Assembly: GCA_004431415.1 (NCBI GenBank)
Contig: QPMI01000395.1
Coordinates: forward strand, 248,001-312,000
From: Cyanophora paradoxa CCMP329
Taxonomy: Eukaryota; Plantae; Glaucophyta
DNA length: 64,000 bases
Direction of reading: 5' to 3'
The position numbers were made by a program, and so were the translations under genes. How positions within the stretch are numbered: the stretch's first letter is position 1; each line of letters begins with the position of its first letter. The notes beneath the pieces are model-generated. The model made no database searches. It was not told the DNA's origin and was given only the letters and a program-made list of their open reading frames with translations. This document shows positions 1-44,875 of this stretch, piece after piece.

Positions 1-1223
1 GGCGTACCTCGCTGCCCTCCGCGAGAACCTCCGGCCCTCCACACAGATCGGTGCGGCTTCATTATAACCTGTCCGCCTCTCAGAGTCTTCTTCTCACGCT
101 TTTCAGTGTTCTTCATCCTGCCGAAGAATGCGAAGGACAGCATGTACGAGGACATCAAGGGCGGGACGATCCCGACCTGCGGGGCCGTCACGCAGTGCGT
201 CAAGGCGGAGAGCCTGGTGCGGCCCTTCTTGCCTGCCTTCCCTCTTTTCGGTGCCGCCCCTGACGGAGGGCGCAGAGCAACCCCGGGAAGATCCTGCAGG
301 TCGTCCAGGGCATCATCCGGCAGGCGCGCCGGCGCCCGGGAGATCGAAGCCGCTCGGGCCGGGCGAGCGGGGGCGGTTGATCGAGATCGGGTCGCCTGCG
401 CAGGTCGTCTCCAAGTGCGGGGGCGAGGCTTGGCGCGCAGACCCCACGCGCACCATCGCCCCGCGCGGCCTCGGTGCGGCACTTTACTGAGCCTTAAAGC
501 AGCTTTTAAGCTTTAAAGCGGTTTTAAAATAGCAGTTATTCAAACTTCGACTCGGACTTTACGCAGGGGACCTGTGCGTCGGGCTGGCGACGTGCCGCTC
601 GACACGGCAGCCGGGGCACATCGTGGTCGCCGCCGTCTGCGTCGACGCCCGCACCTACAAGCAGTGCGCGCCCGCTCGCGCGCGCGCGGCCTCCATCCAG
701 CCCGCCGCCGACGGCGCGCGCGCGTCGCAGGCTTGCGTCGGACGTGCGGAGCGTGCCGGCGGACGCGGACCGCGATCGGCGGTCGGAGGCGGCGGCGGTG
801 GGCGAAGTCGTCGCCGCCGTCCTCTCCGACGCGGCGCTCAAGGCCGGCGCCCCGGCCGCCTCCGCCTCCGCCTCGGTGCGGGCCTTTATCTTCCGGCGGG
901 ACGTGGACCGCCGCCGGCTGCGCGACGTCGAGCTGCCCGCCGTCCGCGCCGCCGTCGGGCGGGAGCTCCCGGGAGCCCTCCTGGGGTACGCCGTCTCCGG
1001 CAAGGCCAAGCAGCGCGCGTACTTCGTGCCGGAGGGCGCCAGCGCCGCCGACCCCCGCAACATCCGGAACCCCCCCGGTGCGGGCCTGCACGAACCCACG
1101 TACCCCCTCCCCTGCGGTCCGAATTCGCGTACCCCCCGCAGCGGGCCTCTGCGTCACGGGGGCGGGGGCCCCCGCCGACCCCGACGCCGCCTCGAGCTTC
1201 CTCGTCACCCACAGGTGGACTGT

Positions 1224-1256
<33 letters not shown>

Positions 1257-1730
1257 CCCTTCGCCGCTCACCCTCCCCAGCTCGCTGCCCGAGTCGAAGG
1301 GAACGCCCATCCTCTCCCAGTACACAGTGCGCGCGCGCGCCCGCGCGCCGCGCCCTCCCCCTTCTCAATCCATCTATCTATCCATCTTTCTCCCGTCGCC
1401 GAGGCCGACCGGACCCACCCGCCCGCCGCAGATCCTGCAGGACGAAACAGGCCTCGAGAAGAAGGCGTGGGCGCAGCTGACCCAGAACCTCTGCTGCTGC
1501 GTGCGCCGCGCCCCGCCACGCCACGCCATGCCGCGCCTCGCGGCTGACCGGCAGCTGTACCCGGGCCGCTCACCCACCGCCCTGCGACGCAGTACCCCAA
1601 CCAGCCGAAGGCAATCAACGAGCCCGGGCCGCTGCGGATGGCGCAGCGGGAGGCCGAGCAGGTCGCCTCCTGCGTCGCCTCGGACGCCCCGCCCCACCCC
1701 AACCTCCTCGAGACCCCCTTTTACCTCTAG
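1..1730 (+). CDS. PIWI-clade Argonaute, 3' portion (MID-PIWI domains), multi-exon, 5' end outside window; slicer residues substituted
   Basis: Spliced translation: AYLAALRENLRPSTQIVFFILPKNAKDSMYEDIK..GAVTQCVKAESL..VVSKCGGEAW..LCVGLATC..RAFIFRRDV..RNPPG..SFLVTH..GTPILSQYT..ILQDETGLEKKAWAQLTQNLC..YPNQPKAINEPGPLRMAQREA..PHPNLLETPFYL* (TAG 1728-1730). Motif order and the C-terminus match Piwi proteins. Confidence 0.9.
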
Positions 1731-2207
1731 TCCGCCCTCGTTCCCGCGGTCCCGAACCCCTTCTCCCCCTACGGCCCTTTCCCGCTGCCCTCTTTCCTGC
1801 TTAGGCCCTTTAATTTCTTCAGCCCGGCCCTCTTTCGTCCCGTCTCAAGCCGCACACGGTCTTTTGAGTTTTTTCCTGTCCTGCTCTCTTAGCCTCCGGT
1901 TTTTTTTTTTGAAAATCAGTCAGATTACGTTCAGTCAATGAATCAATTGCAATACGTTTCTGAAGTCCTCTGAAGTCCGTTCCCCCTCACTTGGCCCCTC
2001 ACCGAAGCTTGAGCCCGAGTGCCCTAGGCCCTTTTATAATTAGCTTAAGCTTGCCTTTAAATTTGTGGTGTGGCGCAAAGTTTAGCTCTGGAAAATCGAT
2101 CGGTTAGCGGTTGCACTTGATCATAAGCGCTAGGTAATCCTACACATACTTTGGACCTGTTCCTACTGAGGCTCCTGAAAATATCGAGAGCATGCCAGCG
2201 ACTGCTT

Positions 2208-3706
2208 CTAGCACGGCGCGGCTGCAGCTGCGGCGCGGGCGGCGGCGGCGGCCTTCCTTGCCAGGATCAAGTTGCTTTTGGGGAAGCCGCGCCGCTTGCG
2301 CTCCAGCACGAACCAGGCTACGACCTGCAGGACACAGACCCTTAGCTGGAAAAACTTGAGGAGCGCGTCTCAGCAATAATAATGAAATCGCATAAACGTT
2401 AACGTAATCAAGCAAATTTCGCGGCGGACCTGCTGTCCCTTCTCGAGCCCCAGCTCCGCCGCCGCGGCGCGGGCGTTGGCCGCCGAGATACGCCCTTGGT
2501 GCTTGTCGAAAAGAGCTTGCAGAGCCTGTACCTGCGTCCGAAGTCGGCGAAGAGGCGAGCGGGATTTGATCGGATATCTAGATGCGATTTTCGAAGGAGA
2601 AGAGCGCTATAAAATCCCTGCCTGCTCGGCCGTCTTCTGGCGGGCGCGGGGCTGCCCCTGAGCCTTCTTGCTGAGCCGCGAAAGATACCTGCAAGCGAAA
2701 ATACAAGGACGTCGACGATATGAATCTCAGCGGCGGTGCGCGCGCACTGTCCGATCGTCTGAGAGCGAATGTGGAGCGCTAGAGGGAGTAGGACCAAGAG
2801 GCCGTCGAAAACCTTGCGGTACTCTTCTCCAAAGCGCTCCCAAATTCGCCGCACAACCTGCCAAGAAATTAGCGATTTCGAAGATGTTGGCATTGATCAT
2901 GAAGCTCGAGCGGATACCTGCTCTTCGTGGGACCCTTCCGGAAGGGCCATGCCTTCGAAATGATCTCGTTCGGGGTCCAGTTTACTCCAGAGAGTCTCGC
3001 CATTGAACGTCTTCAGCCCTTCGCCGACATAGAGAGACTCTCGAAGCTTGGGAATGCCTTCGATGGCTTTTTCGATAGAAGAAGCCTGGCAGAGATCAAA
3101 TTTAAAAGTGGCATATAAATAAAACGAAGGCACCTGGTTAATGGCAGCGAGGCTGGCTGCGAGCCACTGGTCCTTGCGGGCCTTGAGCTCGTCCTCGAGC
3201 CTGCGGCGCGCCGCGGGGCTGAGCTTGTCCGCCCCGCCGCCGATAGAGGGATCCCGCTTCCGCGCAGCGTCGATCACAGCCTTGCCCGCCTCGATTCTGC
3301 ACGCGGTTGATGTTACGTACGCTGAAATCGCAATTCTAGCGATCGGCAATTTTTCGCGCCATGGCCGGGCTGGCGCACCCTCTGCGCGCAACGCACTTCT
3401 TCACTGCCTCGTATACTTCGGGGGGAATTTGCATCGCCATGCAGTCAAAGCTGCGCGCCGTGGTGAAAAGGCGACTGAATTTCGGCGCGAGATCTCGAGA
3501 GCGCAGCCGCACGCGTACGTGCGAGAAAACTGGCGGCCCTCGGCATCCACGTTGTTGCTGCGCTCTGTGTTGCCGAAGAGCGCGGCATGGTGATTCCAGC
3601 GCGGCCGAAATGCGCACCTGAAAACTCCCGGCGGGTTCTCGGCTCCCATCATCTGCTGCTGGAGCAGGTAGTACGATCTCGTTTCGAGGTACGCGGTCAG
3701 CGACAT
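2208..3706 (-). CDS. Atypical homeodomain protein, paralog A (about 9 exons; 5' exon phase uncertain)
   Basis: The last three exons splice to KKAQGQPRARQKTAEQ|VQALQALFDKHQGRISAANARAAAAELGLEKGQQ|VVAWFVLERKRR, a homeodomain pattern (Q12, L16, F20, LGL, Q44-V45, W48-F49, R53). Exons are conserved with paralog B and show many synonymous changes. Confidence 0.7.
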
Positions 3707-4269
3707 GGCGCCCGGCGCCGTCGAAGAATTAAGCTCGTCGAATCGAGTATACGTAGGCTCGAGGGAGGCCGGCCAGAATTCGAATTTTGAAGTTCCGAGG
3801 AGCCTCGGAGATTACAATCAAAAGGGACTGGAGGATCCGGAGTACATGCAAAGTGCGCGTGCATGATCGAGAGAAAAGGAAAACTAAACTCTAGCCTCCT
3901 TGATCGGGGGGAAAGAAAGGAAAATATGGGAACGTGGCACGCATATGCTTCCCGCTCCGCGCGAAAAACGGCGACATAAAATCTAGAGGAGCCCCGGCCC
4001 GCCCCGCGCGCCCCCTTCCGACGGTCGACGTCGCGGGTTCCGACTGTCCCCGAGTCGGGGCTGACTCGGGGGTCCGACCGCCCCCCCCCCCCCCCCCTTC
4101 CCCCCCTGCCTCCCCTCCCCCTCCCCCACCCCGCCTCCCCGCCTCCTCCCCATCTCCCAGCCGGCCAGCTTGGCAGCGCGGCGGACTCGATACCGCTGTG
4201 CTCAACTCGGTTCAGCACTATAGCTAGCGGGCGGGCGGGCGGGCGGGCGGGCGGGGCCGCAGGGGCGCC

Positions 4270-4863
4270 CTACTTGGCGGCGGGGCCGGGGGCGGCGCCA
4301 GCGGCCGGTGCCCCAGCCGCCCGTCGGCGGGAGGCCGTACTCGAGCGACGTGCAGAAGGTCTCGTCCAGCACCATCGCCTCGTCGTCCCCGGCCGTCTGG
4401 CGGGAGGGGAACGAGTTAGAGAGGGCGGGGCGGACTAGAGGAGAGGCTAGAGGCCTAGGGCCTCCAGTCGGCTCCGGAGGCGGACTCGAGCGGCTCGGAA
4501 CGGATACTATCAGCGGATGGGATCGGGCAGATACTATCTATCGGCAGGGCGGGGCGGGGCGTATGCGAGGGGGTGGGGGTAGGATCGGAGTACAGATAGG
4601 CAGACTTCTATCACGAAAAGTATACGTACGATAGCTATCCGGAAGCTGAAGCTATCCGGAAGCTATCAGGGCCGGACCTTGTCCTTGGCCTGCTCGGTGA
4701 AGCGCTGGCGCTGCACGATCGGGTCGTTCAGCTCTGCGGAGGCGTCAGGGGGATAGATGGAAGGGGGGGAGAGGGGGCAGGCACCGGTGTAGGCGTTGCA
4801 GAGCTCGTGGCAGTCGATGAAGAGCTCGAAGCGCTCCGTCAGGTTCGGCGACTCCCGGTGGCT
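4270..4863 (-). pseudogene. Duplicated, internally deleted 3' fragment of the lysyl-tRNA synthetase gene
   Basis: Exons [45 protein letters not shown] and [27 protein letters not shown], with introns, match 18290-18775. They join directly to the AAPGPAAK* tail (18042-18080). The intervening coding sequence and the whole 5' part are missing. Confidence 0.85.
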
Positions 4864-5475
4864 GCCCTCACGTAAGACGAGGGAGCGGGGCGGGGGGGGG
4901 AAGAGCTTGCAAGAGGCAGAGCAGGCGGGGCGGGGCCGGGCGGGGCCGGCCTGGCGCCGCGGCGGATCGGACCTCTGCGCGGAGGTGGCAGGGGACGCGG
5001 GGCAGCCCGCGTGGCTACGGGAGGCCCTCCTCAAGCTCTCCTTCTCCGCCGCCTGAGCCTCGGAGCCGCCCCGCGCGCGTGCTCCTCTTTGTGTCTGGAA
5101 CCTTGTAGAATCGAAATTACGCGGAGCGGTATCCAGATCTGATCATGCATCCTTTTCAGCCTCGCGATCGCTTATCCTTACCTCATCCTTCCATCCCCCC
5201 CTCGCTCGAATTCCTCTCATCTCTTCGAATTCCCTCCTCTCTTTCGGATCCTCAAGTCACTGCTGAGTGCCTCCCTTCGAGTTCGAATTCGGAGCAGTGT
5301 CGATCGACGTCTCCTAGCTATAATTAACCCCCTCGATCCCGGAGTACGTCCGGCTCTCTCCAACTCTAGATTTATTTTTATCTCTCTAGCGCTAGCTCGA
5401 GCTATACCTCTTCTCGGCTTATACTCTCTCTTTCTTCTCATCGACGTTAATTGCCCCATCGACGTCGACGGCGCC

Positions 5476-7114
5476 ATGTCGCTGACCGCGTTTCTCGAAA
5501 CGGGATCGGGTTACGTGCTCCGGCAGCAGATGATGGGAGCCGAGAACCCGCCGGGAATTTTCAGGTGAATTTCACGCGCCGCAAAATTTTCTACACCGTG
5601 CGCCGCGACGACACAGAACGCAGCGACAACGTGGATGGAGAAGGCCGTCAGTTTTCTCGCACGTGCGGCTGCGCTTTCGCGCAATCGACCCCGTGCGCGC
5701 TATTTTCATGATTTACGCGCAGGTTCGACTGCAAGGCGCTGCAAATCCCCCCAGAATTGTACGAGGCAGTGAAGGCCATCGTTGCGCGCAGAGGGTGCGC
5801 GGGGCTGGGTTTGGCCGTGGCGCGAAAACCTGCGCGAAAATATAATCTACGCAAAAACCTCAAACAATTGCAAAATTTCTAGCGCACGCTTGCATGCAGA
5901 ATCGAGGCGGGCAAGGATTTGATCGACGCTGCGCGGGAGCGGGATCCTTCTATCGGCGGCGGGGCGGACAAGCTCAGCCCCGCGGCGCGCTGCAGGCTCG
6001 AGGACGAGCTCAAGTCCCGCAAAGACCAGTGGCTCGCGGCCAGCCTCACTGCCATTAACCAGGTGCCTTAGCTTCGCTGCAGCTCACGGAAGAATTCAAT
6101 TAAACGTCTGCCAGGCTCCTTCAATCGAGGAAGCCATCGAAGGCATCCCCCACCTTCGAAAGACTCTCTACATCGGCCAAGGGCCGTACACAGCCCACGG
6201 CGAGACCCTCTGGACGACTCTGGACCCCGAACGGGACGAGTTTGAAGGCGGCGCCCTTCTCGAAGGGTCCCATGAAGAGCAGGTCTGTCTCTTCGAGCTC
6301 GAGATCAGTTTTGCGAATTCGCAGCTTCAGAGGTCTTTCCTTGAACGAAATTTCGATTTAGAGCCATCGTCTGCTATTCACAATATTAATCAGCGTCGCG
6401 CAATCTCTCCTCCGGAGTCCGGACTCGGAACTCATGCATGCGCAGGTCGTGCGGCGCATGTGGGAGCGCTTTGGAGACGACTGCCGCACTGTACGCAACA
6501 ATCTATGGCTCCGAGTCCCCATGCATCTCCACATTCGCCCTCAGACGATCGGACAGTGCGCGGGCGCTGCCGCCCTAATTTGGCACCAGCATACAAATGC
6601 CTACCGATTGCGAGGCCTCGTACAATATATTTAGGTGCTTTCATCTGCAGGTACTTGTCGCGGCTCAGCAGGAATGCTCAGGGGAAGCCACGTGCCGAGA
6701 GAAAGACGGTCGAGCAGGCAAGCTTAAGCTAGATTTAATAAGCTTCCTTCTTATTTTCAGCCGGACGCTCAGGTGCAGGCGCTTGAAGCGCTTTTCGACC
6801 GGCACAACGGGCGGATCTCGGCGCCCGACGCCCGCACCGCGGCCGCGGAGCTGGGGCTCGAGAAAGGGCAGCAGGTCCGCCGGGGGCAGCTTATACAATT
6901 ACGATGAAAATCTGCCCCCCGGGGTCCGCCGGGGGCAGCTTAGTTTCATCGGGGCAGCCGGGGGTCTTAATCACGATGAAACTTGATTAATTTTTATGCC
7001 ATACAGGTCCTGTCCTGGTTCGTGCAGGAGCGCAAGCGGCGCGGCATGCCCAAGAGCAGCGTGGTGCAGGCGAGACAGGCTTCCCGCGCCCGAGCCGCGG
7101 CAGCGCCGTACTAA
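5476..7114 (+). CDS. Atypical homeodomain protein, paralog B (possibly decaying)
   Basis: Inverted paralog of 2208-3706: PRAERKTVEQ|VQALEALFDRHNGRISAPDARTAAAELGLEKGQQ|VLSWFVQERKRRGMPKSS...APY* (TAA 7112-7114). Same intron positions, including a GC-AG intron. The exon-3 donor appears altered. Confidence 0.62.
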
Positions 7115-7164
7115 AGCGCTGGTCTCGAGCTCGTGCGATCGTTTTTCAGGATGTAGGCTATAGC

Positions 7165-7520
7165 TATAGCTAGCTCATGAACTGACCGATCTGATATTAT
7201 GCCGCTTTCTGCTCGGTGCTCTTTCTGCGCGGGGCTCGAGCTCTGCCCGCCCTAGGCCTCGCTCCCCCCGTCGTCCCACTGCGTCAGCAAATAATCGGGC
7301 ATCGCCTCCGCCTCCGCCTCCCCCCTCCCCCTTCCCCAGCCGGCCCAGCCCCAGCCCCTTCCCTCGATGATCTACTTGTTCTAGCGCCCCGCGCCCCGCG
7401 CCCCGCGCCCCGCGCCCCCATCGCATGGCAGCACGCTGGAATCGATACGCGTACGTATACCGCCTATAGCTACTCGGTTCAGCGCTTAGCTAGCGGGCGG
7501 GCGGGCGGGGCCGTGGGGGC
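7165..7520. repeat. Dispersed copy of the LysRS 3'-UTR/downstream region (17625-18030)
   Basis: The block tatgccgctttctgctcggtgctctttctgcgcgg...cccatcgcatggcagcacgctgga occurs at both loci. Confidence 0.85.
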
Positions 7521-16795: not shown

Positions 16796-17256
16796 CTTTG
16801 ACTGTCCTTTTGCCTGCTCTTGATCCGCCTGCTCCGCCTCCTGTGTCCTCCTCGACCTTGTGCCGTAGCTCTGCCCTTTCGCGTCGTCCTGCTTCGCCTC
16901 CGCCTCCGCGTCGTCTTGTTGTTCCTCTTACTTGTCTGCTTCCTGTTATTTATCTTTCTCAAATTTGTCCTCCGCTTCTTAGTGATGTAATTCCTTCCGA
17001 TATTGATGGTATCTCTAGCTCTGGCTCTTCTTCGTGTCAGTCATCCTCTGTCCCTAGATCTGTTCGATTTCTCGTCTCTTCTCGATCTGTCTCGAGCTCC
17101 GTGTCTTTTCTTTTTTATTGTCGATTTTGGCTCTTTGTCTTCTCTTTCTTCGTGCTCTTGTCTTAGTTATTTTGCTTTTTTGTCTTTATGCCCCCTGGGC
17201 AGCCCCCGCAGTGCTGGTGTCTAGAGACTGTGGCCGGTAATTCACCAAAAAAAAAA
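16796..17256 (+). mobile_element. 5'-truncated copy of the L1/Tx1-type LINE
   Basis: Near-identical to 52135-52601 and ends in poly(A). tcaactt flanks both ends (16792-16798, 17257-17263), consistent with a TSD. Confidence 0.92.
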
Positions 17257-18041: not shown

Positions 18042-22402
<4,361 letters not shown>

Positions 22403-23201: not shown

Positions 23202-24072
23202 ATTCCCATTAAGAGATAACGACATCCCACTGCGCATCTCGTTCCCACCGATCGGCAGAGGGCAGAGGGTACGCCCCGCCGCGCGTACCCCCCCCGCCCC
23301 CCCCCCCCCCCGCCCCCCCCGCCCCCCCCCCCCCCCCTTCCCTTCTGCTAAGCTCGCCCGTTCAACTAGGCTACGGTGGGCCTGCGCCCCGCGGGCCCGC
23401 GGGACCCCGGCCCGCCGCGCCCGCGGCTCGGATCGGAGGCCCCGAGCTCGCTACCGGGCTATCCCAGCAGCCTGTTGGCCATGGAGGCTTGGAGCAATGG
23501 GGGGGGGGGGGGGGGGGGGGGCAGCTTGGCCCACGTGCACCGTGCAGCCCGGTGGAGGCGCGGCGGGCCGCGGGCAGCGGCGCGGCGGGCGGCGCAGCGG
23601 CAGCACGGCTCGGCGGGTGGAGCGCCGGTGCACGTGGAGACGCGGCAGGGCAGCCGAAAGGAGGCGGAGGCGCCGCGGGGACCGCGGCCGCCGCTAGGGG
23701 CTGCGCTGGGCTCGCCCTTAGGCCGGCGCCTGAGCTCGAGCTGGCCTGATATAAAACCATTCACGTGTTCAGCTTTCGAGTTTACCCTTCGAATTCTTTC
23801 ACCAGTACTTGCGCTTCCGCGGCCCGGCCGAGCCGCTGGAAGCAGCGGCGCGTACGCGTGGGGAAGGGGGACCGAACCTACAGCTATCCGAGTCAGTGTG
23901 TGTTTTCTTTCAATTGTGCTTCGAAAACGTCGTGAGTCATGGCTGGTTCGCTGTGTAACTGCACTTCTTGCAATTGTATGAGCTACTTGCATACAGAGGG
24001 GCGGGGGCAGAAGGTCCAAGGAGAGAAGAAAGCGAGTACGCGCGCGCCGAGCTCGCGGATCGAGTCTCGAGC

Positions 24073-27000
24073 TTAGCGGAGGAAATAGCGGTACGCGGGG
24101 TTCTCGGTTTCGTCGAAATAGCGGTACCCGATCGAGTCCAGGAAGTTGTGGAACCGTTCTGCGGTTCGAATACGGTCGGGGCCCCTTCAAAGGAGAAGCG
24201 AGGGGCGAGGAGAAGACGAAGAATTGCGTACCCATCTGGTGCTCGGGGACCTGGATGCCGCAGAGTACCCGTCCGACGTCGGCGCCGTGGTTCCGGTAGT
24301 GGAACATCGAAATGTTGAAAACTGGGGAGGGGAGGGGAGTCGGCGGGGGTACGCGCATTGCAAAATTAAATGAGGGGGGGGGGGGGTAACCGTACCGGGG
24401 GGTAGCTCGTTGAGGAAACGAAGGAGGGCGCCCGGGCGCTCGGGGAACTCGAACCGGAACACGATCTCCTTCTGGGGGTACCGGGCTCGAAGCGCGGCGG
24501 GGAGGGGGGCGTACACGAGGCGGCAGCGGGGGGTGGGGGGGGTACGCAAACGAGCGCACGGGGAAGAGGGACTGCTCGGCGGTGGGCACGGCGCGACCGC
24601 CGACCTGAGGGGGGGGGGGGGGGGGGAGGGAGCGGGGTCAGACAGATTCGATCCGAGCGAGGCGCAGATCAGATTCGATCCGGATTCGATCCGGGCGGCT
24701 TCGGCGGACCATGTGGCGGACGTGGAGCTTGGCCATCTCGTTGTCGGTGAGGTCCAGCGCGTCAAGCCCGGCCTGCCGCAGCCGGCGCCGTCGGACGGGG
24801 GGGGGGGGGGGGGGGGGGGAGGGGCGCACGGCCTGGAGGTCGGCGAGGGTGGCGTCCACCTCCGTCCGGTCCTTGATCTGCGAACGAAGCGGGGCGGGGC
24901 GCCCTCCTCAGCGCGGGGGCGGGGCGCGGGGGGGGGGGGGGGGGGGGCATAGGGGAGGTAGGCGGGCTAGGCCCGCTCGAGGGCCTAGCATGCACTGGAT
25001 CGAGGGCACTGGATCTAGCATGCACTAGAGGGCACCGGGCGGGAAGGCCAAGGCTAGGCTCGAGGGCCTAGCCCGCCAGGCCGTTCAATAGAGCCTCCCT
25101 TGCTCTAGACCTACAGCGCTCCAAGACGGGAGTACGGACCTGGATCCCAACGAACACGTTCGCCCGATCCGCCGACGAGTACCTGGGCGGGGGGGGGGGG
25201 TAGGAGGTCAGAGGGGGGGAGGGGGTTGGCGGGGGGGTACGGGGGTACCGGTAGTTGAACTCGGTGATGTTGCGGGTGCCGAGGACGCCGCAGAACTCCT
25301 TAAAGGCCCCAGGCCGCTCCGGGATCGTCACCGCCAGCCTGAGGGGCGAGGAGGAGGAGGAGGAGTGGGTACAGGGGAGGAGGGAAAGGAGTGTAGGGAC
25401 GGCGTTCGCGCACACTGCCTCGCGCTTCTCGCCGAGCTCAGAGCGCTCCGAGACGTAGCGGAGCACGTCGAAGTTCATGTTCGCGCCCTGGGAGGGGTAC
25501 GAAGGTCAGGGAGGAGTACGTCAGGCCGCAGAGGTGAGGGCCGGGGGCCGCGTCGTCGCACCGACGTCACGGCAACGAGCAGCTCGTTCTTGCAGCCCTG
25601 CGCACGAAGGTCGGGATGGGGGGGGGGAGGGGAGGGGGGTACGGCGCACGGTCAGCTTGGCGTACTTCTTGGCGCCGGCGACGCCGAGGGAGCCCGCCGG
25701 CTCCAGGATCGACCGCGTGTCCGCGAACACGTCCTGGGGGTACGCGGAGGATCCGATCAGGCCAGGAGGGGCCCTCCCGGCAGCGTACCCCGCCGGCCGC
25801 CCCTCCCGCCGCCCCTCGCCCGCCCGCCCGCCCGGCCCCCCCTCTCGGCGGGGGACGAGCCGGCCCCTCCGCCCCTCCCGCCCCGCCCCGGGCCCGGCGG
25901 ACCTTAATGGCGGCGCACATCTCGTCGGTGTCCACCAGCACGATCTCGTCCACCAGCGGCTGCCGGGGGGGTCAAAGGGAGGAGGGGAGAGGGGTACAGA
26001 TCCCTCCGATCTCCTCCCCCTGGCCCGGGTACCTTGGAGACGTTGAACGTGTGCTCCCCGCACAGCTTCACCGCAACGCCGTCGGCGAACAGGCCCACCT
26101 GAAGAGGGGCGGGGGGTAGAGGGTTAGAGGGGGGAGGGGGGGAGTGGGGTGGGGGGGTAGGGGAGGGGAGGACCTGGTCCAGGAGGACGCGCTCCCCTGC
26201 CGCCAGGCTCGCCTGCGCGGGGGGTACGCGTGAGAAGGGGGGAAGGAGGAAGGGGGGGGGGGGTGATCGCTGCTCGCCTGCATGCAGTTCGAGTCGGTGG
26301 GCTCCACCCCGATCACCTTGACCTAAAAATAAAAGCCTCAGAAAGAAAGAAGAAAGAAAGAATATGGGAGAGGAGGAAGCTTAAGGGGGTTACCTGGGGG
26401 TGGACGGCCTTCACGTAGGCTGCGATGCCGGCGACGAGGCCGCCGCCGCCCACCGGCACGAAGATCGCGTGCGGCGCCTCGTTCGAGCTCTGCGGGCCGG
26501 ATCGGGTCAGATCAGATCTGAGGGCCCAGCGTGGGACCGGCCCAGGTGGATGGCTCGGCCTCGGTTCAGGCCTCGGATCAGATCGAAGGGCTCGACCCTA
26601 GCCATAGGGCGGATGAAACAGAGAACGGATGGCATCGATCTCAAGCTAGCAGCGCATCGCTAGGCCAGGCCGATCCGCCCCGCCTATTCCCCTCGGGCCC
26701 TCCCTCCTCCCTCCCTCGACCCCGCCCGCCCCCCGCGGACCTGCCGGAGGATCTCCATGCCGACGGTGCCCTGCCCCGCGATCGTGTCGGGGTCGTCGAA
26801 CGGGTGCACGAACGTCAGGCCCTCGTCCTTCTGCAGCTGCGCCGCGTACGCTGCGCCCGAGCGAGCGAGCGTGAGGGCGGCTCGAGCGGAGCGGAGCGGA
26901 CGTGCAGCATAGGAGGCGCACCGGCGGCGCCGTCGTAGCTTTCGCCGGAGAGCACCACGCGGCCGCCCAGGCGCTTCACAGCGGCGACCTGCACGCGGCG

Positions 27001-28000
27001 GCGGACGGCGACCGACGGTCAGCGGCGGAGCGGAGCGGGGCCGAGGAATGGCTCGCGAGCCTTGATCTCGGGGGTTGTCTGGGGCATCACGATCGTCGCC
27101 TGGCAGCCGAGCGTCTTCGCTGCGAGCGCCACGCCTGCGCGCACGGAGGAGCGTGAGGCGGGAGGAGAGCGCGGCGCGGCGCGGTTCGAGGGAGGCGCAC
27201 CCTGCGCGTGGTTGCCGGCGGAGCACGCGACGATGCTGAGAAAAGAAAAGAAGAGAGGAACGAGCGTCAGGACGCGTGGTGACGGGCGGCGCGTGCGCGG
27301 GGCCGCACCCGACGGCGCGCTCGACCTCCGTGAGGTTCGCCATCTTGTTGAAGGCGCCGCGGAGCTTGAAAGAGAAGACCTGCTGCATGTCTTCGCGCTT
27401 CAGCATGATCCGGTTGCCGGAGCGGGCGGAGAGCGTCGGCGCCAGCTCGAGCGGGCTCTCGATCGCCACATCGTAGACCTTGGCGCGAAGGATGCGCAGC
27501 AGGTAGTCCTCCAGCATCTTCTTCGTCTCCTCGCTTTGGGCGCCCTCCGGCTCGTACCACGGGTTGATGCCGGGCCGGGCCGCCGAAGGGGTGGCGGCGG
27601 CGACGCCGTTCGGCGAGGACGCGAGGTCCGTGAGCGGAGCGCGGAGGTCGTTGGAGAGCCCGTCTTGCGAGCATGACGCGGCATGCCGCTGGCTGGGCCC
27701 GTCCGCCCGCGTCTTCGGCCGCTGCTGCGTCCGCTGAAGGCTCGCGCCGAGCCACGAGGAGCGCTGGGAGGCGCCGACGGACACTCCACTCTGTCCCGCG
27801 CCCCGGAAGACTGACTGTGTCACGTCGGGGCTGTAGCTGAAGCGGCTCGCCGGGCGCGCGGAGGCACACGCGCCGGCGCGAGCCTCACGCGACGGAGCCA
27901 CATTGAGGAAGATCCCCTCAGGCGCCGCATGTGGGAGCACGGCGTGAGCCGCCCCGCGGAGCTGCAAGGGGGCCCCGAGTGCGAAGGCTGCGGTCGCCAT
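24073..28000 (-). CDS. ilvA: Threonine dehydratase (biosynthetic) with N-terminal organellar, probably plastid, transit peptide
   Basis: KVYDVAIESPL, LKREDMQQVFSFKLRGAFNKM (PLP lysine), SAGNHAQG, VHPFDDPDTIAGQGTVGMEI, VPVGGGGL, ITEFNYRY, FEFPERPGAL, ISMFHYRNHG, C-terminus DETENPAYRYFLR*. Confidence 0.96.
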
Positions 28001-31138: not shown

Positions 31139-34100
31139 TTAAAGAGCGATAGATTTCACGTGGGGTGCAGATGCAGGCTCGTCGCCTCGATCCGGCGTCG
31201 TTGCCCTCAAGCGAGCGGCCTCAGACGGAGTTAAAGACGCGACCGGCTCCGGCATTGTCGTGCTAGCTATAGCTGTAAAGCATTCGAAAGACTGGGGATG
31301 AAGATCGGAGACTCGTTCCGGAGCAGCCTCTGTTGGCCCGATGAAAGTGAACGAGGTCTTGCGAACAACGCCAGCTCTAGATCTGTCGTCGACGTCCCTC
31401 TCGTTCGCGGGGTAATGTCCAAGAGCAGGGGCGTCGTTCTCGAGTTCGACGTCATGCCGTCTCTGCACACGCGCGCTGCAGCCGGGGCCAACATGAATTT
31501 TGCAGTGTTTTGCGTGACGCACTCTCATGATAAGGCCTCGGATGGCGAGGTACAGGGCGAGAATCTGTCCAACAGCCTCGATGGCTCCGCTTCCAAGCGC
31601 GAAAACATCCGCAATCTGTGTGTCCAATCAGCCGGGACAATTGACGCGCAAGAAATCAAAAAACAGGCGCACCGCGTCTAAGACCGTGGTTCGCGTAATG
31701 CGGTCGACAAGCAGGTAAACCTGATTTTTCAAATTTCTTGGACGCTGGAAAAGCAGGGCGAACAGGAACACAGCACCTGGCTGGGTTTGAAGAGGACACG
31801 AAACTGGACCATGGCCTCTGCGCACTCCACTACTGGCCGACCGGGCGGGCAAACGACCTGCAGACGAAGGCCCCGCTGAGAAGGGATGGCGATAAACCAG
31901 ATGCGCAAACCCAGTACATACGAAGGTGGAAGGATTGCGCTCGGACAGTTCCGTGTCAGCGGCCGAGACAGCCGCGAAATATCGCGGATTTCCATCCAGC
32001 GATGATGTAAAGTGCATCGCTGATGTAGATAATACCAATTTAAATAAATAGCATCAAATAGCGCTTAACACTGTATAAATATTGCTGCATTGAAGGCTTC
32101 CACGCACGGGTCAGGTCGACGGGAAGGTTCACGGTGTCTTTGCCACGGAAGACTGAACTCTCCGTCCCAGTTGTAAATGCGCCCTCGAGCGCCACATACT
32201 CTGGAATCTACGAAGGGCATTGACGTCGCATGAGCAGCAGTTGATGATGCAGAGGCCGGCAATTGCAACCGCATCGCATGGCGCATACCTGCACAGCATA
32301 CGCAATGGAGACGGCGAATGCACGAGAAGATCGCAAGCGCATCCCAACAAAGGTGCCGTCTTTGGCTGAGAGACGACACCGATCGCACACCCAAGAGACG
32401 CTGCAAGCCGCGGCCATGTTGCAAAGAACGCGGTCGTCATGCTCAAGCTTGAAAGCAATGCCGGCAAACGCGGCACCTGCACGAGCGCCCGCTGTCCGCT
32501 TGCTCGTACGAGATGGCATCTACCCCCGAAATTCCAGCCCGCTCGTAGGCAACGTCGCTCGCACTGCACGGACCTAATCGGCGGGTTTGAGATTCGGAAT
32601 AGATCTGACCGGCAGTCTTGGATCAGCATGCGGAACCGGTACCTCCGTAGCCGCGGAACGTAGCCTTGATGCCGAAACGTCCATCGATTGAGCTCTCTGA
32701 AGGGCTGGTCCCGGGATTCTGACGGCGATTGTACATGTGTTGGCATTATGATCATTAATATTGAATTTAAATATGAATAGTTAAAAAATGAAGCGATATC
32801 GGCTTACCAATGACTGAACCACCTGTTTATGCGAGAATTGAAGTTTAAAGATTAGCACCATTGTGTACAGGGACAGACGTCGACGTCGACCTAGAACAGA
32901 CAGAAATCTCTAATCGAACCGTGTAATTCGCCATCCAGAACTGGACTGCCACAAAGCTCACTGCAAGTCAAACGCCCGGCTCGTGTAAGAGCTGGCGGGA
33001 TACACGTGTGGCATGATCATGAGCCTTTAGAGCATGTGCGCACCAGCCACAATGATGCCGGCGACACCTGCAATTGTAAAGAATGATCCCGTCACAGATC
33101 GCGTGTCCGGCTTTTCCTCCCCGCGGCCATCAACGTTTCTTCCACCCTCAAAGGCTATCGGCTTCTCGTCCTTGGCGTTCGAAAGCTCTGGTCTGTGCTG
33201 CGCTGACTCTGCTCGCGAGAGCAAAGACAGAAAGTAATTGGCGTGGTAAAATGGGCGCGAGAGCAAAGGCAGACAGGGAGTGGCACCTCTAAAAAGGAAG
33301 TGCAAGCGCCGGAGCTGCCGCAGATGAGCTCTACGCGCATCGAGCGACCCCGAGAAGACGGTTATATACAAGAAGAAAACGAGCGCTGTCAGAACGAGGA
33401 AGATGCCCATTACAATTCCGATCCACATGAATGCCTGTCGTGTATTTTAGTTTGCCGCCGAATTCAGAGTACATGCACGCGGCAGAAAGCGATCGCGCGA
33501 ACCCTGAAAACGTTGTCGAGAAGTCCCCTCTCCGTTTTCACGACGGCCTGCGTTATGCTCACAGCGTTGCGGCCGTATCGGAACTCCTCGGTCTGTGTCT
33601 CAATCCCCGAATCCGCCCCCGAGCTGCCCGCCTGCAGCAGCTTGCGGACGCGACCAAGAAGCCTCCGGGTGGGGGTGGTCTGCCCCTGGGTTCCGGACTG
33701 CGGTGAAGCGCGTTCGAGGCGCAGCCCCATATTGATCGGTTGGGAGGTCGCTGCAAGAAACGGTCGCAAGTTTTGTTTAATTATAAAATTAGATGTAAAG
33801 CCCTCAAGGCAATTATCTCGCACCGACTGGGCAGAGCATTCCGCTCGGGCATGGTAGACAGATGCGTGCTCCGCTTTCGGGAGAGTATGTGCTGTACGGG
33901 CTGTGCGAAAAACATTCATTGAATGAAGCGTGGCTTATATAATTATAGAAGGTCGCTCGCACCAAGGCATGCAAGCATCGAGCGTCGAGTTTCTGAACGT
34001 GCCAGGCTCACATGCCTTGCATTCAAGGCTGTCCTCCGAGATGTGGCCCTCGTCGCAAGCCGCACATCGGAAGCTGCCAGCTACAGCGCGGGCATTTAGA

Positions 34101-37100
34101 GGGCACTGCAGGCACTCCGAGCTGCCAGCCGGAGCGTATTTGCCGGCAGGGCAGGCCACCTGCGCTCGGTTTCAGGCCACCTGCGCAAATCGGAGATAGT
34201 CCTTGCGGCGTGCGCACGCATTGTACACGCTCGGAATTGGCCACGCTCCCGGCATTGCAGGGCTTCGCAGCATTCAATATTAAGTTCGAAAAGCAAAGGC
34301 GGATTCACGAACCTGGCACTGAGACATGCCCTCTTCCGATGCCGTCGAGTTGCCCGGGCACAACAGGCATTTGGTGCCGGATTCGTCGGGAATGCGGCCC
34401 ATCCCGCACGCTGATTGTGTAATTAGGAGCGGCGTTAGCTATAGAACTACACATTTTTGGAGAAGCGCAAAAGAATGTTTTGATTTTGCTGCAGCAATAT
34501 AACTGCTTGCGCTCAACGAACCAATGCATGTCACCCTGCGCATGCGTGCAGAATTAATATTACGTATACAAATCTCATGATTGAGTGCATCCAAGCGAGG
34601 TTGTCTCACCGGTCTTCTCTTGGAATCTTTCCAGTGGGGCTGCAAGGACTAGTAAGGCCCTTGAGCATGCCGAAAAACAGCTAGAATGAGCATGCAAACC
34701 AGCGAGAACACTCTTTACTTCCAACCCTGTCCGAGTAGAGACCCGGGGGACAAATGGCGCAGAAAAGCATCGACGTATTACGGTACGTTCCCTGAAAATA
34801 GGCAATAGATGTCGGATAAAACACAAGCGAAACCGTGCTGGAATAGCCACATATGCATTCACCGTACTGCATGGATCGCAAGCGGAAAAATCTGCCCGAG
34901 AATAGCGGCCCGGAGGGCATGCTGTGCATTCCGCGACCTTGCCAAGCTCGTCCGAATACGTATTTTGAGGGCACTGCGCATGGAATGCGATATAGAAATT
35001 AAATTGAAGCCCTCGATAAGATCGGAAAGCCGAAATAGTATTATTTTTCAATTCAGACCTGCTCGCAGGTTCTGCTCCCGTTCCGCATGAATGTGCCACG
35101 CTCGCAAGGGACGCACGTTGTGCTGCGCGGATGAGACATTACCCCGCGCGCTAGACCGATATCATAGCTATAGCATCGACAGGCAGACCCATCGGCGGAC
35201 GAAACGGTGCCAAGAGGACAAGGGGGGCATTCTTTGTACGTCTTGCGTGGAGAAACGTAGCCCTGAGGTCGCCAATAGTCATTAGTCAGCCGTTGATCAA
35301 TCGTTGCAATGCAAAACAAACGTACACTCTTGCATGGGAAGCAGTTGTTCTGCAGTGCAATCGGGAGCAACCAGGTGTAGAAGTGAGCGAACAAAATTCA
35401 ATTCTAACGCTGAGACCGCTGATCGGACCTGATCTTCGGGCTGGTAGGTACCGGCTTCGAGTTTATGAGCATATGCATGTGAGAACATCGCATATGCATA
35501 TCGCGGCGCGGGCTGTTTGGAAAAAGTCCGTCTTACCAGGGCAGTCAGCGCAACTCGTTTGATCGTCGTTGGCGATTTGTCCCTGTTTGTTGTCATCAGT
35601 TTACGTTGTGCAGCGTGTCTTTGTATACTTGAGCTGCAACTCCGGTCACTTTTTCGCATGTTTGACACTTTGTGCTACCAAGCGTGGAGCTGATTTGTCC
35701 CTGTATCCCGCGTTGATATGATAAGAGCAATAGCATGCGCAGGGCAGGGTAGAAGCACATTTGGGCAGCGCCAGCAACGGCCATCCTTCTCGAAGTAGCC
35801 AGGAGAGCACGGCCTGCGCTTCATGAGCTGAAAACGAAACGCCGTCGCCATCAAACCATCAGCGTATTTGTGCGCCTGCATTCCGTTCGGTCGTCTGAAC
35901 TCTCGCTTCCAGGTTCACTGGAAAAACGGCCATGAATGAATAAGTCCATGCATATGGCCGATGGAAAAGAAAGAGATATTAATACCAGGGAATGCATTCG
36001 GCCGCTCCAGCCGCTCTTGTGTAGAATCGAAAGGGGCACTGTTTTGTAAATAGACGCTTACATATCAGGCGGTTGCAAGTTCGATCGCGAGTACTCTAGC
36101 GGAAAGTAGAACGAATTACTGACAGAGACACATGTCTTGTTCTGCTCTGACCGGTAGCTTCCTTGAGGGCACGGCTGGCGAAGAATGTGTCACGTGACGT
36201 ACGCGTGTCTGCAGTTCAGACACATTTCAAGATACCATGCAGTTCTGCCGGTCCATGGACGCGACATATCCGGGATTGCACGGTTCGCAGCTCGGGCTTC
36301 CAGAGAAAGGAGTCACCGAGTTGATGGGGCACCTAAAAGAGACGGGTGCTGACAAATTAAACATTGTCGTACATGCGCATGCATTTATAGCCGCAAATAA
36401 CGAACTCGACGCAGCTGCCATCACGAACGGAGAACCCTGGCCTGCAAGCTTCGCAGGCTGTTCGTTCGACATTTGAGATGCGGCCGTCTGGACAAGGACT
36501 GCACGCCTTTGCGCCACTGCTGCTGAAGTCCCCGAAGGCGCACATCATGCACTCGCTCATCCCAGTCGCCCTGTAACGGCCAGCCAAACAACTGCAGCAG
36601 GAGAGCCAATCAATGTTAGAATTCTGGTTTAAAACTTCCAGCTCTGGAAGACGGCTCACGGAAGACAGCTCTGTTTGTCTTCGCTAGCCACAGAGCCCTC
36701 CTCGCTGCGACTTTATATCAATAATTGTGTTAACCGGGTCTAGATCGTGTTTCAGAGCGAACCACTCAATGCACGACAAAGCGGTCGGATACGGATTGTA
36801 GGTGTTGCCGAGACACAGCCTGCACGTTCCATTGTCCGCAAACGCTCCCTTGCCTGTGAGCAAGAGTCGGAATAGCGCTTTTTGCTCAGACCAAAACCAA
36901 AGTAGACAGTAGAAGCACCGCAAGGAGAACAGAAGGATCCATCTGAACTGGGGACCTCCCCACCGGCACAAACTGAGAACATTGCACTACCCTCGAGGGC
37001 CACTGCGCCAGTCGGAACAGAAGAGCAAGATGTCATTGTGCTGTTCCGGTAGGTACCACTCTTGCACGCTGCAGAATATGTATGAAGCGTAAATATGAGC

Positions 37101-40100
37101 TTCGGTGGAACTAATAAGCTGGAGAATGCTCACGCAAGCAAGCCTGATTGTCAGGAGACGAGACCGAGCCGACGGGGCACCGTGTGCAATTCGTCGACCC
37201 GAGCAGAGGGGCGACCTCGTTAATCCCACAACTGCAGCTCAACGTATGTTAACGTTTGTACCTTTTGAATATTCATGACGCTTCAAAACTCTCACCTCTC
37301 GCAGAAGTCGTCTAACTGGAATTTCCCTCGGGGACACTCCAAGCATTCGCTCAGGCCCGCCCTGGGCACCCATCCGGGTTCGCAAGGCGTGAAGTTGAAA
37401 GATCCCTCCGGGGCGACGGCTCGAGGCGGCACGGCCTTGCAGTATGTCATGTTTTCGCCACGGTACGTGCCCGAGCCGCACTTCACGCAAAGCTGAGCGT
37501 CGGCCGTAGCTGCCTGCCCCACTTCACACTCCGTGCAGAAGTCGGACGCCTCGGTAGGCGCGACCCAGTTGAGTGGACACCTACGACAGAAAGATCAGTA
37601 AAGGCGTGCACGGGGCCGCCGTCGGCGTCTCCGCAGCTGCAGCTGCGCGTGCGGTGCGCACCGCTGGCACGACTCGCCCTTCTGGTACGTCCCTGCGGGC
37701 CGCGGCCGTCAGGAACGACGTGCGTCTCCCCGAAAACGATAGCTGAAGCGACCGGGCGGATGGCAAATATCAGCGAATCGCGTTAATGACCCACGCACCG
37801 GCCGGGCATTTGGTGCAGTCGCTCCTCGCGAGGTTTGGCACCGAGCCGTTTGGGCACATCGAGTAGTTCGCGGAGCCCTCCGGCGCGTACGCTCTCACCG
37901 GCACCGGCCCGCAGTAGGTCATGCCCTCCGCGCGGTACGTCCCTGCACATGCGGGCGCGCCGCGTGGAATTCAGCGGCCCTGCCGAGCGGCGGAGGCCGA
38001 TGGCTGTGGTCCCGGGTGACGCACCCGGGCTGCACTTCACGCAGTTCTGCGAATCCGACGCAGCGATCTGCCCCAGCGGGCACGCCTTGCACTCCACCGA
38101 CGCGGGACCGTCCGAGATTGTGTTCAGCTTGCACCTGCGGTGTTCGGCGGCATCCCCGTCAAGCCATCCTCTCGGCCCCGCGTGCATCGGCCCCGCGATG
38201 GGTCGCACCGGAGGCACTCGCGCCCCGACGGCGACTTGTATGTGCCCGCGGGGCAGTCCACGCACTGCGCCCGCAAGTCGTCCGGCACCCGCCCCGCCGG
38301 GCACGGAAGGAACAAGGCCGCGCCGCGCTTCGCGGCAGCCCCCAGAGGCACGGGCTCGCACGCCGTCATTGAGGCGTTGCGGTACGTCCCTGCAGCGCGC
38401 CGGCATGCCATAATCAGTGACGGGTCGACACGTTCACGCGGTGCACGTGGGGCAGCCCCGCAATCGCAACCGCAAGGTGCGCACCGGCCTCGCACGCGAC
38501 GCAGGACTGGGCGTCGTCAGCGGGCACCATCCCCTCCGTGCACTCCTTGCACTCGACGCTCCCTTCCCCCTCCGCAATCTTCAGCCCCGAGCACCTGTCG
38601 TAGCCCCGCGTCAGCGCAGGAGCGCTGCAGGCGGTGCGGTGCGCGTGGATGCCCGCGGCTGCCGTCGGCGTCTCCGCAGCTGCAGCTGCGCGTGCGGTGC
38701 GCACCGCTGGCACGACTCGCCCTTCTGGTACGTCCCTGCAGGCCGCGGCCGTCAGGAACGACGTGCGTCTCCCCGAAAACGATAGCTGAAGCGACCGGGC
38801 GGATGGCAAATATCAGCGAATCGCGTTAATGACCCACGCACCGGCCGGGCATTTGGTGCAGTCGCTCCTCGCGAGGTTTGGCACCGAGCCGTTTGGGCAC
38901 ATCGAGTAGTTCGCGGAGCCCTCCGGCGCGTACGCTCTCACCGGCACCGGCCCGCAGTAGGTCATGCCCTCCGCGCGGTACGTCCCTGCACATGCGGGCG
39001 CGCCGCGTGGAATTCAGCGGCCCTGCCGAGCGGCGGAGGCCGATGGCTGGGGTCCCGAGTGGCGCACCCGGGCTGCACTTCACGCAGTTCTGCGAATCAG
39101 AAGTAGATACGTGTCCCGGAGGACAGACCTCACAAGTCGTCATGCCCTCCTTCGATGTTTTGGCATTGACAGGACATCTGGAGAAACGTTTAACGTCAAA
39201 TAAAGACATGCTTTTTGTAGAATTGCATTGAGTTCGCTGACCGTTCACACATTGTCTTGTTTGCTGACAAGAATGTGCCTTGTGGGCTGACGAAACGATT
39301 ATATGGCATGTCATAAATAAGATCTAGACATGTTCAAACGAACCACTTGGAGCATGCGGAAGTAGCTCCTGCAGAAACCTCGCCAGCAGGACAGCGAGTA
39401 CAGTTGCGAAAAGCACCTGCCGATCATGATCACCTCTTATACACATGTACACGTGCACTTTCTGAACGAGCTCGAGATGAATAAACTGAAATGCACCAAA
39501 ATCTTTGGAATAAGTCATTGGAGGGCAAGCGGAGCAGAGAGAGGCTCCGGGGAACGGAAGGAAGTATCCAGGAGGGCACGCTTGAAACGCAGAATGCAAG
39601 GCATTAGAATTCGGTGTGTTGCAGGAACCCCATTCGGTGTGTACGCGCACTTTTGCACTTTTCCGTCCACCCGACTGACTCTGTGAAGCCGTTCTCATCG
39701 CAAGGAGAGCATGGTTCGCCGTCGCGCCTGGAGAAGGTTCCAAGTGGACACGCTATGAGCGAAATGCGCAGTTAACACGATAGTGCAGCATTCGTTGACA
39801 ACTAAAAACTGCACGGACCGTAGCACGAGTACTTGTCTGGCCCAGTGCCCTCGCGGCTGAAGGCGCCCGCCGGACACTTGGTACCTGTATATGGCCAAGC
39901 ACTCTCATAATCTAGATCTGTAGCTTACACGAAGTTAAGACGGCGTACAGTTTGTCGCTCCTGGTCCCGAGAAGGTGCCATTTGGGCAAAGAGGCGCCTC
40001 TGTCTCATTTAGAAGCCTGCCCAGAGAGCTATAGCGGCCTGAAAGAAGACATGGTTATGCAAGGCAAAGAGCGGCTAGGATAACACAACTCACCGGCGGG

Positions 40101-44542: not shown

Positions 44543-44875
44543 GAAGCGTATACGTACGGCTGCAGCACATTGCAGGCCATGAACGTTCGTGCATGGACGC
44601 ACATGCATATGCATGCCCTGCATACTTTGCCCTGCCAGCTGTAGGCGCTGCGGCCAGCGTTCGGCCTTCGCCGTCAACGGCGCCCTGGCCCGCCCCGGCG
44701 TCTGCGGTATACGCTGTATACCGTACTACGGTATACGTATACGTACTCGCGATCGGCGGCGAATACCCGGTATACGTATACGCTGTATACGTCTACGTAC
44801 GGCTAGACGAGACTTTACCCCCCTGGGGTGCGATCGCCTTGTCTTCCACCTTCCTGCCTCCCCAGCCTCAGCCAC

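What the first reader, a model, noticed from the sequence alone, without database searches (positions are those of the whole stretch)
1..1730. PIWI-clade Argonaute with intact guide-binding pocket but no slicer tetrad, in an apparently plastid-bearing alga
Seen: the MID 5'-phosphate pocket residues are kept (Y and K in MYEDIK, Q in TQCV, K in SKCGG). The catalytic positions read GLATC (for GIDV), FRRDV (for YRDGV) and MAQRE (for YAHKL). The 'TQIVFFILP..KD.Y..IK' segment and 'YPN..AI..P.P...PH..L...FYL' tail resemble Piwi more than AGO. Established: plants and fungi generally lack PIWI-clade proteins. Inference: a non-slicing Piwi in an archaeplastid-like genome rich in LINEs/SINEs may point to an unrecognised small-RNA silencing pathway.
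Basis: partly seen in the sequence, partly recalled or inferred. Interest (0 to 1): 0.75.

Follow-up and report, generated by a model that had tools for sequence, protein, structure and literature searches.

The report
Non-cutting PIWI protein in glaucophyte alga
The alga Cyanophora paradoxa, a distant relative of red algae and green plants, carries an intact, spliced gene for a very diverged PIWI-type small-RNA protein that keeps its guide-RNA pocket but has lost three of its four RNA-cutting residues; it likely silences by binding rather than cutting, next to a second, conventional PIWI, in a lineage that may have kept the Argonaute type that plants lost.

Summary
Observation confirmed. Window 2-1730 holds the last 10 exons (residues 544-891) of an 891-aa protein that the collection lists as Cyanophora paradoxa P010154. 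Spliced contigs from 6 study codes confirm the introns. It is PIWI-clade: 145 of 149 hits are PIWI-like, and nesting inside AGO is rejected (AU p about 1e-4). A published supplementary alignment already holds another C. paradoxa PIWI with an intact D-E-D-H and a Gloeochaete PIWI. The alga's small RNAs were described in 2013: 21 nt, weak 5' bias, no cleavage signature. Non-cutting PIWI paralogs are known in ciliates. Best reading: a non-slicing PIWI paralog acting in a Dicer/RdRP-type pathway, not a piRNA pathway. What remains notable is the lineage: one survey lists no AGO-clade gene in this alga, so glaucophytes may run PIWI-only RNAi, the mirror image of red and green lineages. I found no text saying so, and could not test it.

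The parts
2..50 (+). First exon in the window (cut by the window start), MID domain, from residue 544
   Evidence: contigs run on 125 nt upstream
107..216 (+). Exon, MID pocket: Y573 (145-147), K577 (157-159), Q589 (193-195)
   Evidence: joints 49>106 and 215>275
276..323 (+). Exon ending in Q612 (321-323), the column that is Q in PIWI rows and K in 4 rows
324..403 (+). GC..AG intron, 80 nt
   Evidence: 80-nt skip in X1, X3, X6, X19, cut ambiguous over 5 letters
404..473 (+). Exon, K616 (413-415), end of MID
567..663 (+). Exon, first PIWI strand; catalytic position 1 is A643 (587-589)
731..1077 (+). Exon, PIWI core; position 2 E687 (786-788), position 3 R724 (897-899)
1142..1214 (+). Exon, PIWI
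1281..1326 (+). Exon, PIWI; the 66-nt intron before it is shown by adjacent contig pieces 1141-1211 and 1278-1326
   Evidence: table 8
1432..1500 (+). Exon, PIWI
1593..1730 (+). Last exon; position 4 is Q864 (1644-1646); short PIWI-type tail, C-terminal L891, stop TAG
1731..2199 (+). 3' untranslated region; spliced contigs end at 1889-1897 (4 runs), 2133 and 2199 (1 run each); contigs cannot fix a transcript end

Best explanation
This is an intact, spliced Cyanophora paradoxa gene for a full-length PIWI-clade Argonaute that keeps the 5'-phosphate pocket and lacks three of four slicer residues, and it likely works as a non-cutting small-RNA effector beside the host's conventional PIWI. Steps: (1, shown) the gene is spliced into an open frame. 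(2, predicted) the protein folds into the six-part N-L1-PAZ-L2-MID-PIWI Argonaute. (3, inferred from conserved residues) it anchors a 5'-monophosphate guide in the PIWI-type, metal-bridged MID pocket. (4, inferred from the lost residues) it cannot cleave targets. (5, inferred, weakest) its guides are the host's 21-nt Dicer/RdRP products rather than animal-type piRNAs, and it represses by holding the target and recruiting other proteins (RdRP, decay, translation or chromatin factors), as proposed for non-catalytic ciliate PIWIs.
For: Open frame and splicing: (6 of 8 runs laid show intron-skipping joints, from study codes P1, P2, P3, P4, P5, P9; the other 2 runs show none and read through introns). 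PIWI clade: all 11 PDB sequence hits at E<=1 are PIWIs although that library holds many AGO chains and HrAgo1; 145 of 149 collection hits score higher with PIWI than AGO references; AGO rows split from P0001 plus PIWIs at 98 SH-aLRT (72 rows) and 100/100 (31 rows); two nestings inside AGO rejected (p 9.7e-5, 1.2e-4), three inside PIWI not rejected (p 0.22, 0.15, 0.16); equal-depth profiles favour PIWI in 25 of 25 draws for PAZ and for the whole protein, 23 of 25 for MID and for PIWI. Fold: pLDDT 81.7, pTM 0.85; Z 40.3, rmsd 6.5 A, 688 aligned to Drosophila Piwi, model residues 20-891 spanned. Selective retention: MID keeps 12 of 14 conserved columns (9 of 9 at the stricter cut), the PIWI domain 29 of 60. 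Host context: 21-nt exonic small RNAs, four RdRP loci, no match between small RNAs and degradome peaks (PMC3700990); second PIWI with D-E-D-H.
Against: No guide, partner or location was observed. PAZ keeps only 12 of 24 and the PIWI domain 29 of 60 conserved columns, below every other row for PIWI (minimum 0.58), so binding beyond the 5' end may be weak. The free tree puts P0001 on a long branch (1.9-2.5) at the base of the PIWI side with no sister and no prokaryotic outgroup; its composition is flagged as atypical. N-L1 scored higher with PIWI profiles in only 1 of 25 draws and L2 in 13 of 25, at near-zero scores. The model was built from a PIWI-only alignment, so its closeness to PIWI structures (top 16 rows, then AGO2 at Z 36.0) is partly circular. 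Only 5-6 AGO rows were available. The lack of cleavage signal in 2013 is a negative bulk result, and the host has a tetrad-bearing PIWI that should cut.
Confidence: 0.62

Rival explanations
1. A paralog that has left target silencing: it holds only the 5' end of RNAs (sponge, sorting or quality-control role, or scaffold), or is decaying under relaxed selection.
For: PIWI domain 29 of 60 and PAZ 12 of 24 conserved columns kept; at most 24% identity to any row; no close relative found: best non-self hit 66 bits among 1.84 billion representatives, only itself among 7,985 candidates.
Against: Open 891-residue frame with nine clean introns in the window; 9 of 9 strict MID columns kept at about 22% background identity; spliced RNA in 6 study codes; whole Argonaute fold predicted. 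No dN/dS could be run.
Confidence: 0.2
2. Nuclear effector of an animal-like piRNA pathway against LINEs, like Drosophila Piwi.
For: Non-slicing PIWI plus a slicer-type PIWI is the fly arrangement (own knowledge); a LINE with a 96-98% truncated copy is in the window; 83% of small-RNA reads come from 305 contigs, which could be cluster-like.
Against: Bulk small RNAs peak at 21 nt within a 16-32 nt selection, with only slight 5' A/U bias, and map largely to mRNAs; HEN1 column empty for this alga in a plant-query search (weak, since that row also lacks the largest polymerase subunits). Zucchini not tested.
Confidence: 0.13
3. A highly diverged AGO-clade protein, or a stem Argonaute outside both clades, that only looks PIWI-like through ancestral features.
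For: In unrooted trees it joins between AGO and the other PIWIs (81/79 support); PIWI shares ancestral traits with prokaryotic Argonautes (PMC12477606 section 34); a 4-row AGO profile also aligns (hhalign probability 99.2); 4 of 149 hits are AGO-like.
Against: AU tests reject nesting in AGO; its junction is 0.12 from the PIWI crown and about 0.8 from the AGO crown; HrAgo1 is in the PDB set but not hit at E<=1; PAZ scores with PIWI in 25 of 25 draws.
Confidence: 0.05

Closest known systems
Paramecium Ptiwi07 / Tetrahymena Twi8 (PMC3105430, passages)
   Same: Most divergent PIWI of its genome, catalytic triad mutated (IDQ in Ptiwi07), small-RNA-end residues reported conserved in most of the family, found in a protist whose RNAi uses PIWIs; these ciliates have no AGO-clade member.
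   Different: Different supergroup; ciliates have up to 15 PIWIs and nuclear dimorphism; orthology was not tested; guides and location are known for Twi8, unknown here.
C. paradoxa PIWI EP00741_17219 (PMC11217426 supplementary datasets)
   Same: Same host, PIWI clade, full length.
   Different: It has D, E, D and H at the four positions (read by eye from the printed alignment) and typical PIWI motifs; ours has A/E/R/Q. Their relationship could not be put on a tree.
EP00274_7213 (same dataset)
   Same: PIWI with positions 3 and 4 changed (S, Q); shares three short features with P0001, two in MID and one around position 4; 2, 1 and 0 of 149 hits carry them, none all three (patterns chosen after seeing both).
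   Different: Keeps the first aspartate and is far less eroded. Its species was not mapped by any search; that it is a glaucophyte is recall plus numbering next to Gloeochaete (EP00276).
Mouse MIWI and Drosophila Piwi (PDB 9s0z, 6kr6)
   Same: Best sequence match (E 1.4e-19) and best structural match (Z 40.3); fly Piwi is a non-slicing PIWI (own knowledge).
   Different: About 19-22% identity in the structural alignments; germline piRNA context; no Piwi_N or PAZ Pfam hit for P0001 at E<=1.

Membership tests
Long Argonaute | N-L1-PAZ-L2-MID-PIWI architecture | tested here: met
   891 aa; model spans 20-891 on PIWI/AGO structures; PAZ-L2 region aligns to MIWI by sequence. Pfam PAZ itself not hit.
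Long Argonaute | MID 5'-phosphate pocket residues and C-terminal residue in register | tested here: met
   Y573, K577, Q589, K616, L891; binding itself not assayed.
PIWI clade | Groups with PIWIs, not AGOs | tested here: met
   unrooted, 5-6 AGO rows, long branch.
PIWI clade | Position inside the PIWI crown relative to HrAgo1 and prokaryotic Argonautes | tested here: inconclusive
   No outgroup obtained; nesting in PIWI not rejected, not shown.
PIWI clade | Uncharged residue (Q) where AGO has K in the pocket; short C-terminal tail | tested here: met
   Q612: Q in 96, K in 4 of 101 rows; tail length as in PIWI rows. Mapping to metal-dependent recognition is my inference.
Slicer-active Argonaute | DEDX tetrad (X = H, D, K, N) | tested here: not met
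   A643/E687/R724/Q864.
AGO clade | Nests among AGOs | tested here: not met
   AU p 9.7e-5 and 1.2e-4.
Animal-type piRNA pathway | Guides 24-32 nt, 1U, 2'-O-methylated, Dicer-independent | not testable with these tools
   No IP data; bulk RNAs are 21 nt with slight A/U bias, which leans against.
Animal-type piRNA pathway | Hen1, Zucchini, GTSF1, Tudor partners in the genome | not testable with these tools
   No genome held; HEN1 column empty in PMC7994812 data S3.
Short or PAZ-less PIWI-like proteins (TrypPIWI, Med13, pPIWI-RE) | No PAZ lobe or no 5' pocket | tested here: not met
   PAZ region scores with PIWI profiles (median 19.8 bits) and is modelled at pLDDT about 76-96; RNaseH_pPIWI_RE hit is below cut-off.

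The most novel reading that the evidence does not exclude
Cyanophora, and perhaps all glaucophytes, run small-RNA silencing on PIWI-clade proteins alone: one slicer-type PIWI and one non-cutting PIWI that belongs to a glaucophyte-wide dead subfamily, both fed by Dicer and RdRP. Red algae and green plants kept AGO instead, so the first plastid-bearing ancestor had both clades and its descendants lost opposite ones.
Probability: 0.45. Interest if true: 0.65.

Novelty: new member of a known kind. Interest (0 to 1): 0.45.

Why it matters
'Plants lost Piwi' is a stock statement (PMC3105430 abstract). PIWIs in glaucophytes narrow it to red algae and green plants and give a culturable alga in which to ask what PIWIs did outside animal germlines and ciliate nuclei. 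A two-gene set, one cutting and one not, would be about the simplest system in which to separate slicing from non-slicing roles, and might explain the 2013 puzzle of abundant exonic small RNAs with no cleavage signature. The protein alone is one more non-cutting PIWI; such proteins are common among its relatives (26 of 101 other rows lack aspartate 1 or 3, a count that includes a few truncated or AGO rows).

Tried and rejected
Pfam on 7 unspliced frames found no Piwi. My first splice coordinates were off by a base or more at several junctions and were corrected; an alternative donor at 1497 broke the frame. Single-sequence folding failed (pLDDT 35.6). Full-length homolog search returned only the query; the AGO-profile search returned 4 proteins, hence the thin AGO set. 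Attempts to get a prokaryotic outgroup failed: alignment not usable, no plasmid match, 175 pattern matches but none confirmed. The Atlas returned mixed PAZ/Piwi clusters at 0.94-0.96, which does not separate clades. No run was on record as RNA; expression rests on intron-skipping joints. Joints 876>1634, 1357>2230 and 1361>2223 have sides of 20-22 letters in GC-rich low-complexity sequence and were set aside. A 1-base gap at 1070 in one contig of depth 2.4 was treated as an error. The other glaucophyte PIWIs are not among my stored proteins (7 short motifs, 0 matches), so they are missing from my trees; tree files in the supplement are cut. Two motifs of our protein were not found in that supplement (gaps in the alignment could hide them). 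EP00274 could not be mapped to a species. Rows dropped: set, 47 kept 102 of 163 proteins (690 aa or more, cluster duplicates removed); tree used 72 rows (every third canonical PIWI kept); tree used 31 hand-picked rows with other long branches removed, under LG+G4; alignment A2 held 116 rows, no AGO. Literature searches; none listed a paper that states PIWI presence or AGO absence in glaucophytes; subscription papers and bioRxiv supplements were not visible and may state it. Earlier-findings look-ups were empty.

Full report
Observation. Window 2-1730 (+) splices through nine introns of 56-105 nt into 348 codons and a stop. The largest exon retrieved one protein, P0001, 891 aa, 100% identical, whose residues 544-891 equal the spliced frame. 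The collection lists it as EP00741_Cyanophora_paradoxa_P010154, gene tig00020510_g9829.t1, a cluster of one. The host is thus the glaucophyte C. paradoxa; a table in PMC12517565 (supplement passages only) gives the same id-to-species mapping. Pfam Piwi matches residues 559-871 at E 1.2e-17.

Expression. Of 8 runs laid, 6 hold contigs that skip the introns (X1, X3, X6; X11, X12, X19; six study codes from 2019, 2020 and 2024, of which same-year ones may be one campaign). Eight of nine introns appear as joints; the ninth (66 nt, over a poly-C run that the tool skips) is shown by adjacent pieces. X17 and X18 read through introns and show no joints. Contigs give no level, strand or ends.

Clade. 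All 11 PDB sequences hit at E<=1 are PIWIs, best MIWI at 1.4e-19; the same library returns dozens of AGO chains and HrAgo1 for an AGO query. An exhaustive search gave 157 hits at E<=1e-3, 150 listed, best non-self 66 bits; 145 of the 149 score higher with PIWI references and 4 with AGO. Named ones include animal, amoebozoan, metamonad, foraminiferan and ciliate proteins. Trees separate the AGO rows from P0001 plus PIWIs at 98 (72 rows, LG+C20) and 100/100 (31 rows, LG+G4). Because the trees are unrooted and P0001 attaches near the base of the PIWI side on the longest or second longest branch, I used constraint tests: two placements inside AGO are rejected (p about 1e-4), three inside PIWI are not (p 0.15-0.22). 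With five-row profiles, PIWI beats AGO in 25 of 25 draws for PAZ and the whole protein, 23 of 25 for MID and PIWI, 13 of 25 for L2 and 1 of 25 for N-L1, the last two at low scores. No outgroup could be fetched. PIWI membership is well supported; the position within PIWI is unresolved.

Anatomy. With a 116-row PIWI alignment the model reaches pLDDT 81.7 and pTM 0.85. Its top 17 Foldseek rows and top 16 VIA rows are PIWIs, with AGO2 close behind; the ranking is partly circular. The pocket residues Y573, K577, Q589, Q612, K616 and terminal L891 are kept; the tetrad reads A643, E687, R724, Q864. Using approximate domain limits of my own, P0001 keeps 12 of 14 conserved MID columns (others' median 0.86) but 12 of 24 in PAZ and 29 of 60 in PIWI, the latter below all other rows (small register errors in loops will inflate the losses). 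Selection thus seems to hold the 5' pocket and the fold and to have released the nuclease face. Loss of slicer residues is common among its relatives: 57 of 101 other rows are DEDH and 26 lack aspartate 1 or 3.

Host context. Gross et al. 2013 (PMC3700990; parts 1-3 of 4 read) report one Dicer hit, two Argonaute-like contigs found with an Arabidopsis AGO1 query, four RdRP loci, and small RNAs of mainly 21 nt with slight 5' A/U excess, mapping to about 75% of coding sequences; they found no correlation with degradome peaks and suggested that these RNAs may not direct cleavage. They did not assign clades. Bastiaanssen et al. 2024 (PMC11217426; passages, and supplement file 3 passages plus parts 1 and 12) drew 454 PIWIs from EukProt and kept 100. 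Their alignment holds EP00741_17219, a C. paradoxa PIWI with D, E, D, H; EP00276_9263 from Gloeochaete wittrockiana (mapped; D, N, D, R by eye; a transcriptome, so contamination is possible); and EP00274_7213 (unmapped). In the number-ordered PIWI block these two EP0027x entries are the only ones between EP00160 and EP00299, a range that includes Arabidopsis (EP00260). The main text has 0 occurrences of 'glauco', 'Archaeplastid' or 'algae'. Wang et al. 2021 (PMC7994812; passages and data S3) list one Dicer and one RdRP but no gene in any of four AGO columns and no HEN1 for C. paradoxa, while 3 of 4 red algae have AGO entries; the word PIWI is absent from their main text. That row also lacks the largest RNA polymerase subunits, so its blanks are weak evidence. 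Two Argonaute contigs in 2013, two PIWIs now, and no AGO in 2021 fit together, but I could not search the genome.

Mechanism. Shown: intact spliced gene, PIWI affinity, residues kept and lost. Predicted: full Argonaute fold. Inferred: 5'-phosphate guide loading, no slicing, action through recruited factors on 21-nt Dicer/RdRP guides, in a division of labour with the tetrad-bearing paralog. The closest precedent is Paramecium Ptiwi07 and Tetrahymena Twi8 (PMC3105430, passages). I give 0.62 to this reading, 0.20 to a sponge, scaffold or decaying role, 0.13 to a fly-like piRNA effector and 0.05 to AGO or stem placement. The first three share the core claim (non-cutting PIWI), which I hold at about 0.95.

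Known versus new. It works like known non-slicing PIWIs and is a member of the PIWI clade; it fails the slicer test. The protein is annotated in a public proteome, and a PIWI from this host already sits in a published dataset. Ten literature searches listed no paper that remarks on glaucophyte PIWIs or on this paralog; closed-access papers and bioRxiv supplements were not visible. Also consulted: PMC12477606 (outline, section 34, term search), the EukProt preprint (term search, 0 hits), PMC12026948 (passages, nothing relevant). Earlier scan notes describe similar dead PIWIs in foraminifers and PIWIs in diatoms (unchecked), which lowers the surprise of 'PIWI in an alga', and a split Dicer-like locus in this genome (unchecked), a lead that this RNAi system is unusual in other parts too.

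Verdict. Real and correctly read. As a protein: new member of a known kind. As a lineage fact it is modestly surprising and cheap to test: PIWI-only RNAi in glaucophytes, probability about 0.45. Interest 0.45.

Noticed in passing
window 2200-3800 (-) and 5480-7115 (+): Divergently oriented, spliced paralog pair, 76% identical over 850 bp; their C-terminal exons look by eye like a homeodomain third helix (untested).
   Followed up: partly
window 1731-2210: PIWI transcript contigs reach 2133 and 2199, next to the stop of the opposite-strand gene at about 2208; the 3' ends converge and may overlap, a possible source of double-stranded RNA.
   Followed up: no
window 18100-22400 (-) and 4270-4880 (-): A gene that reads by eye as lysyl-tRNA synthetase, with a 90-92% copy of its late exons near 4300-4880 (D15, D17); flanking pieces are also repeated at 7194-7298.
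   Followed up: partly
window 24000-28000 (-): Gene that reads by eye as threonine deaminase, with a long Ala/Ser-rich N-terminal extension like a glaucophyte plastid transit peptide.
   Followed up: partly
window 44800-52600 (+); 16796-17256: LINE-type element with RVT_1, coding region split over several frames; a 96-98% copy of its 3' end sits 35 kb upstream, suggesting recent activity.
   Followed up: partly
window 53468-59956: Near-identical tandem duplication with a 3.4-kb period that contains arrays of a 148-149-bp unit.
   Followed up: no
window 32000-40500 (-): Lower-GC, intron-rich region encoding Cys-rich repeats, with a 99% duplicate of about 1 kb period at 37607-38949.
   Followed up: no
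proteins P0013, P0024, P0030, P0035, P0044, P0047, P0051, P0054, P0061, P0062, P0087, P0103, P0155: A starred clade of 13 protist PIWIs (100 SH-aLRT), all lacking the third aspartate; several come from MMETSP/JGI transcriptomes, taxon not determined. A separate, larger family of probably non-cutting PIWIs.
   Followed up: partly
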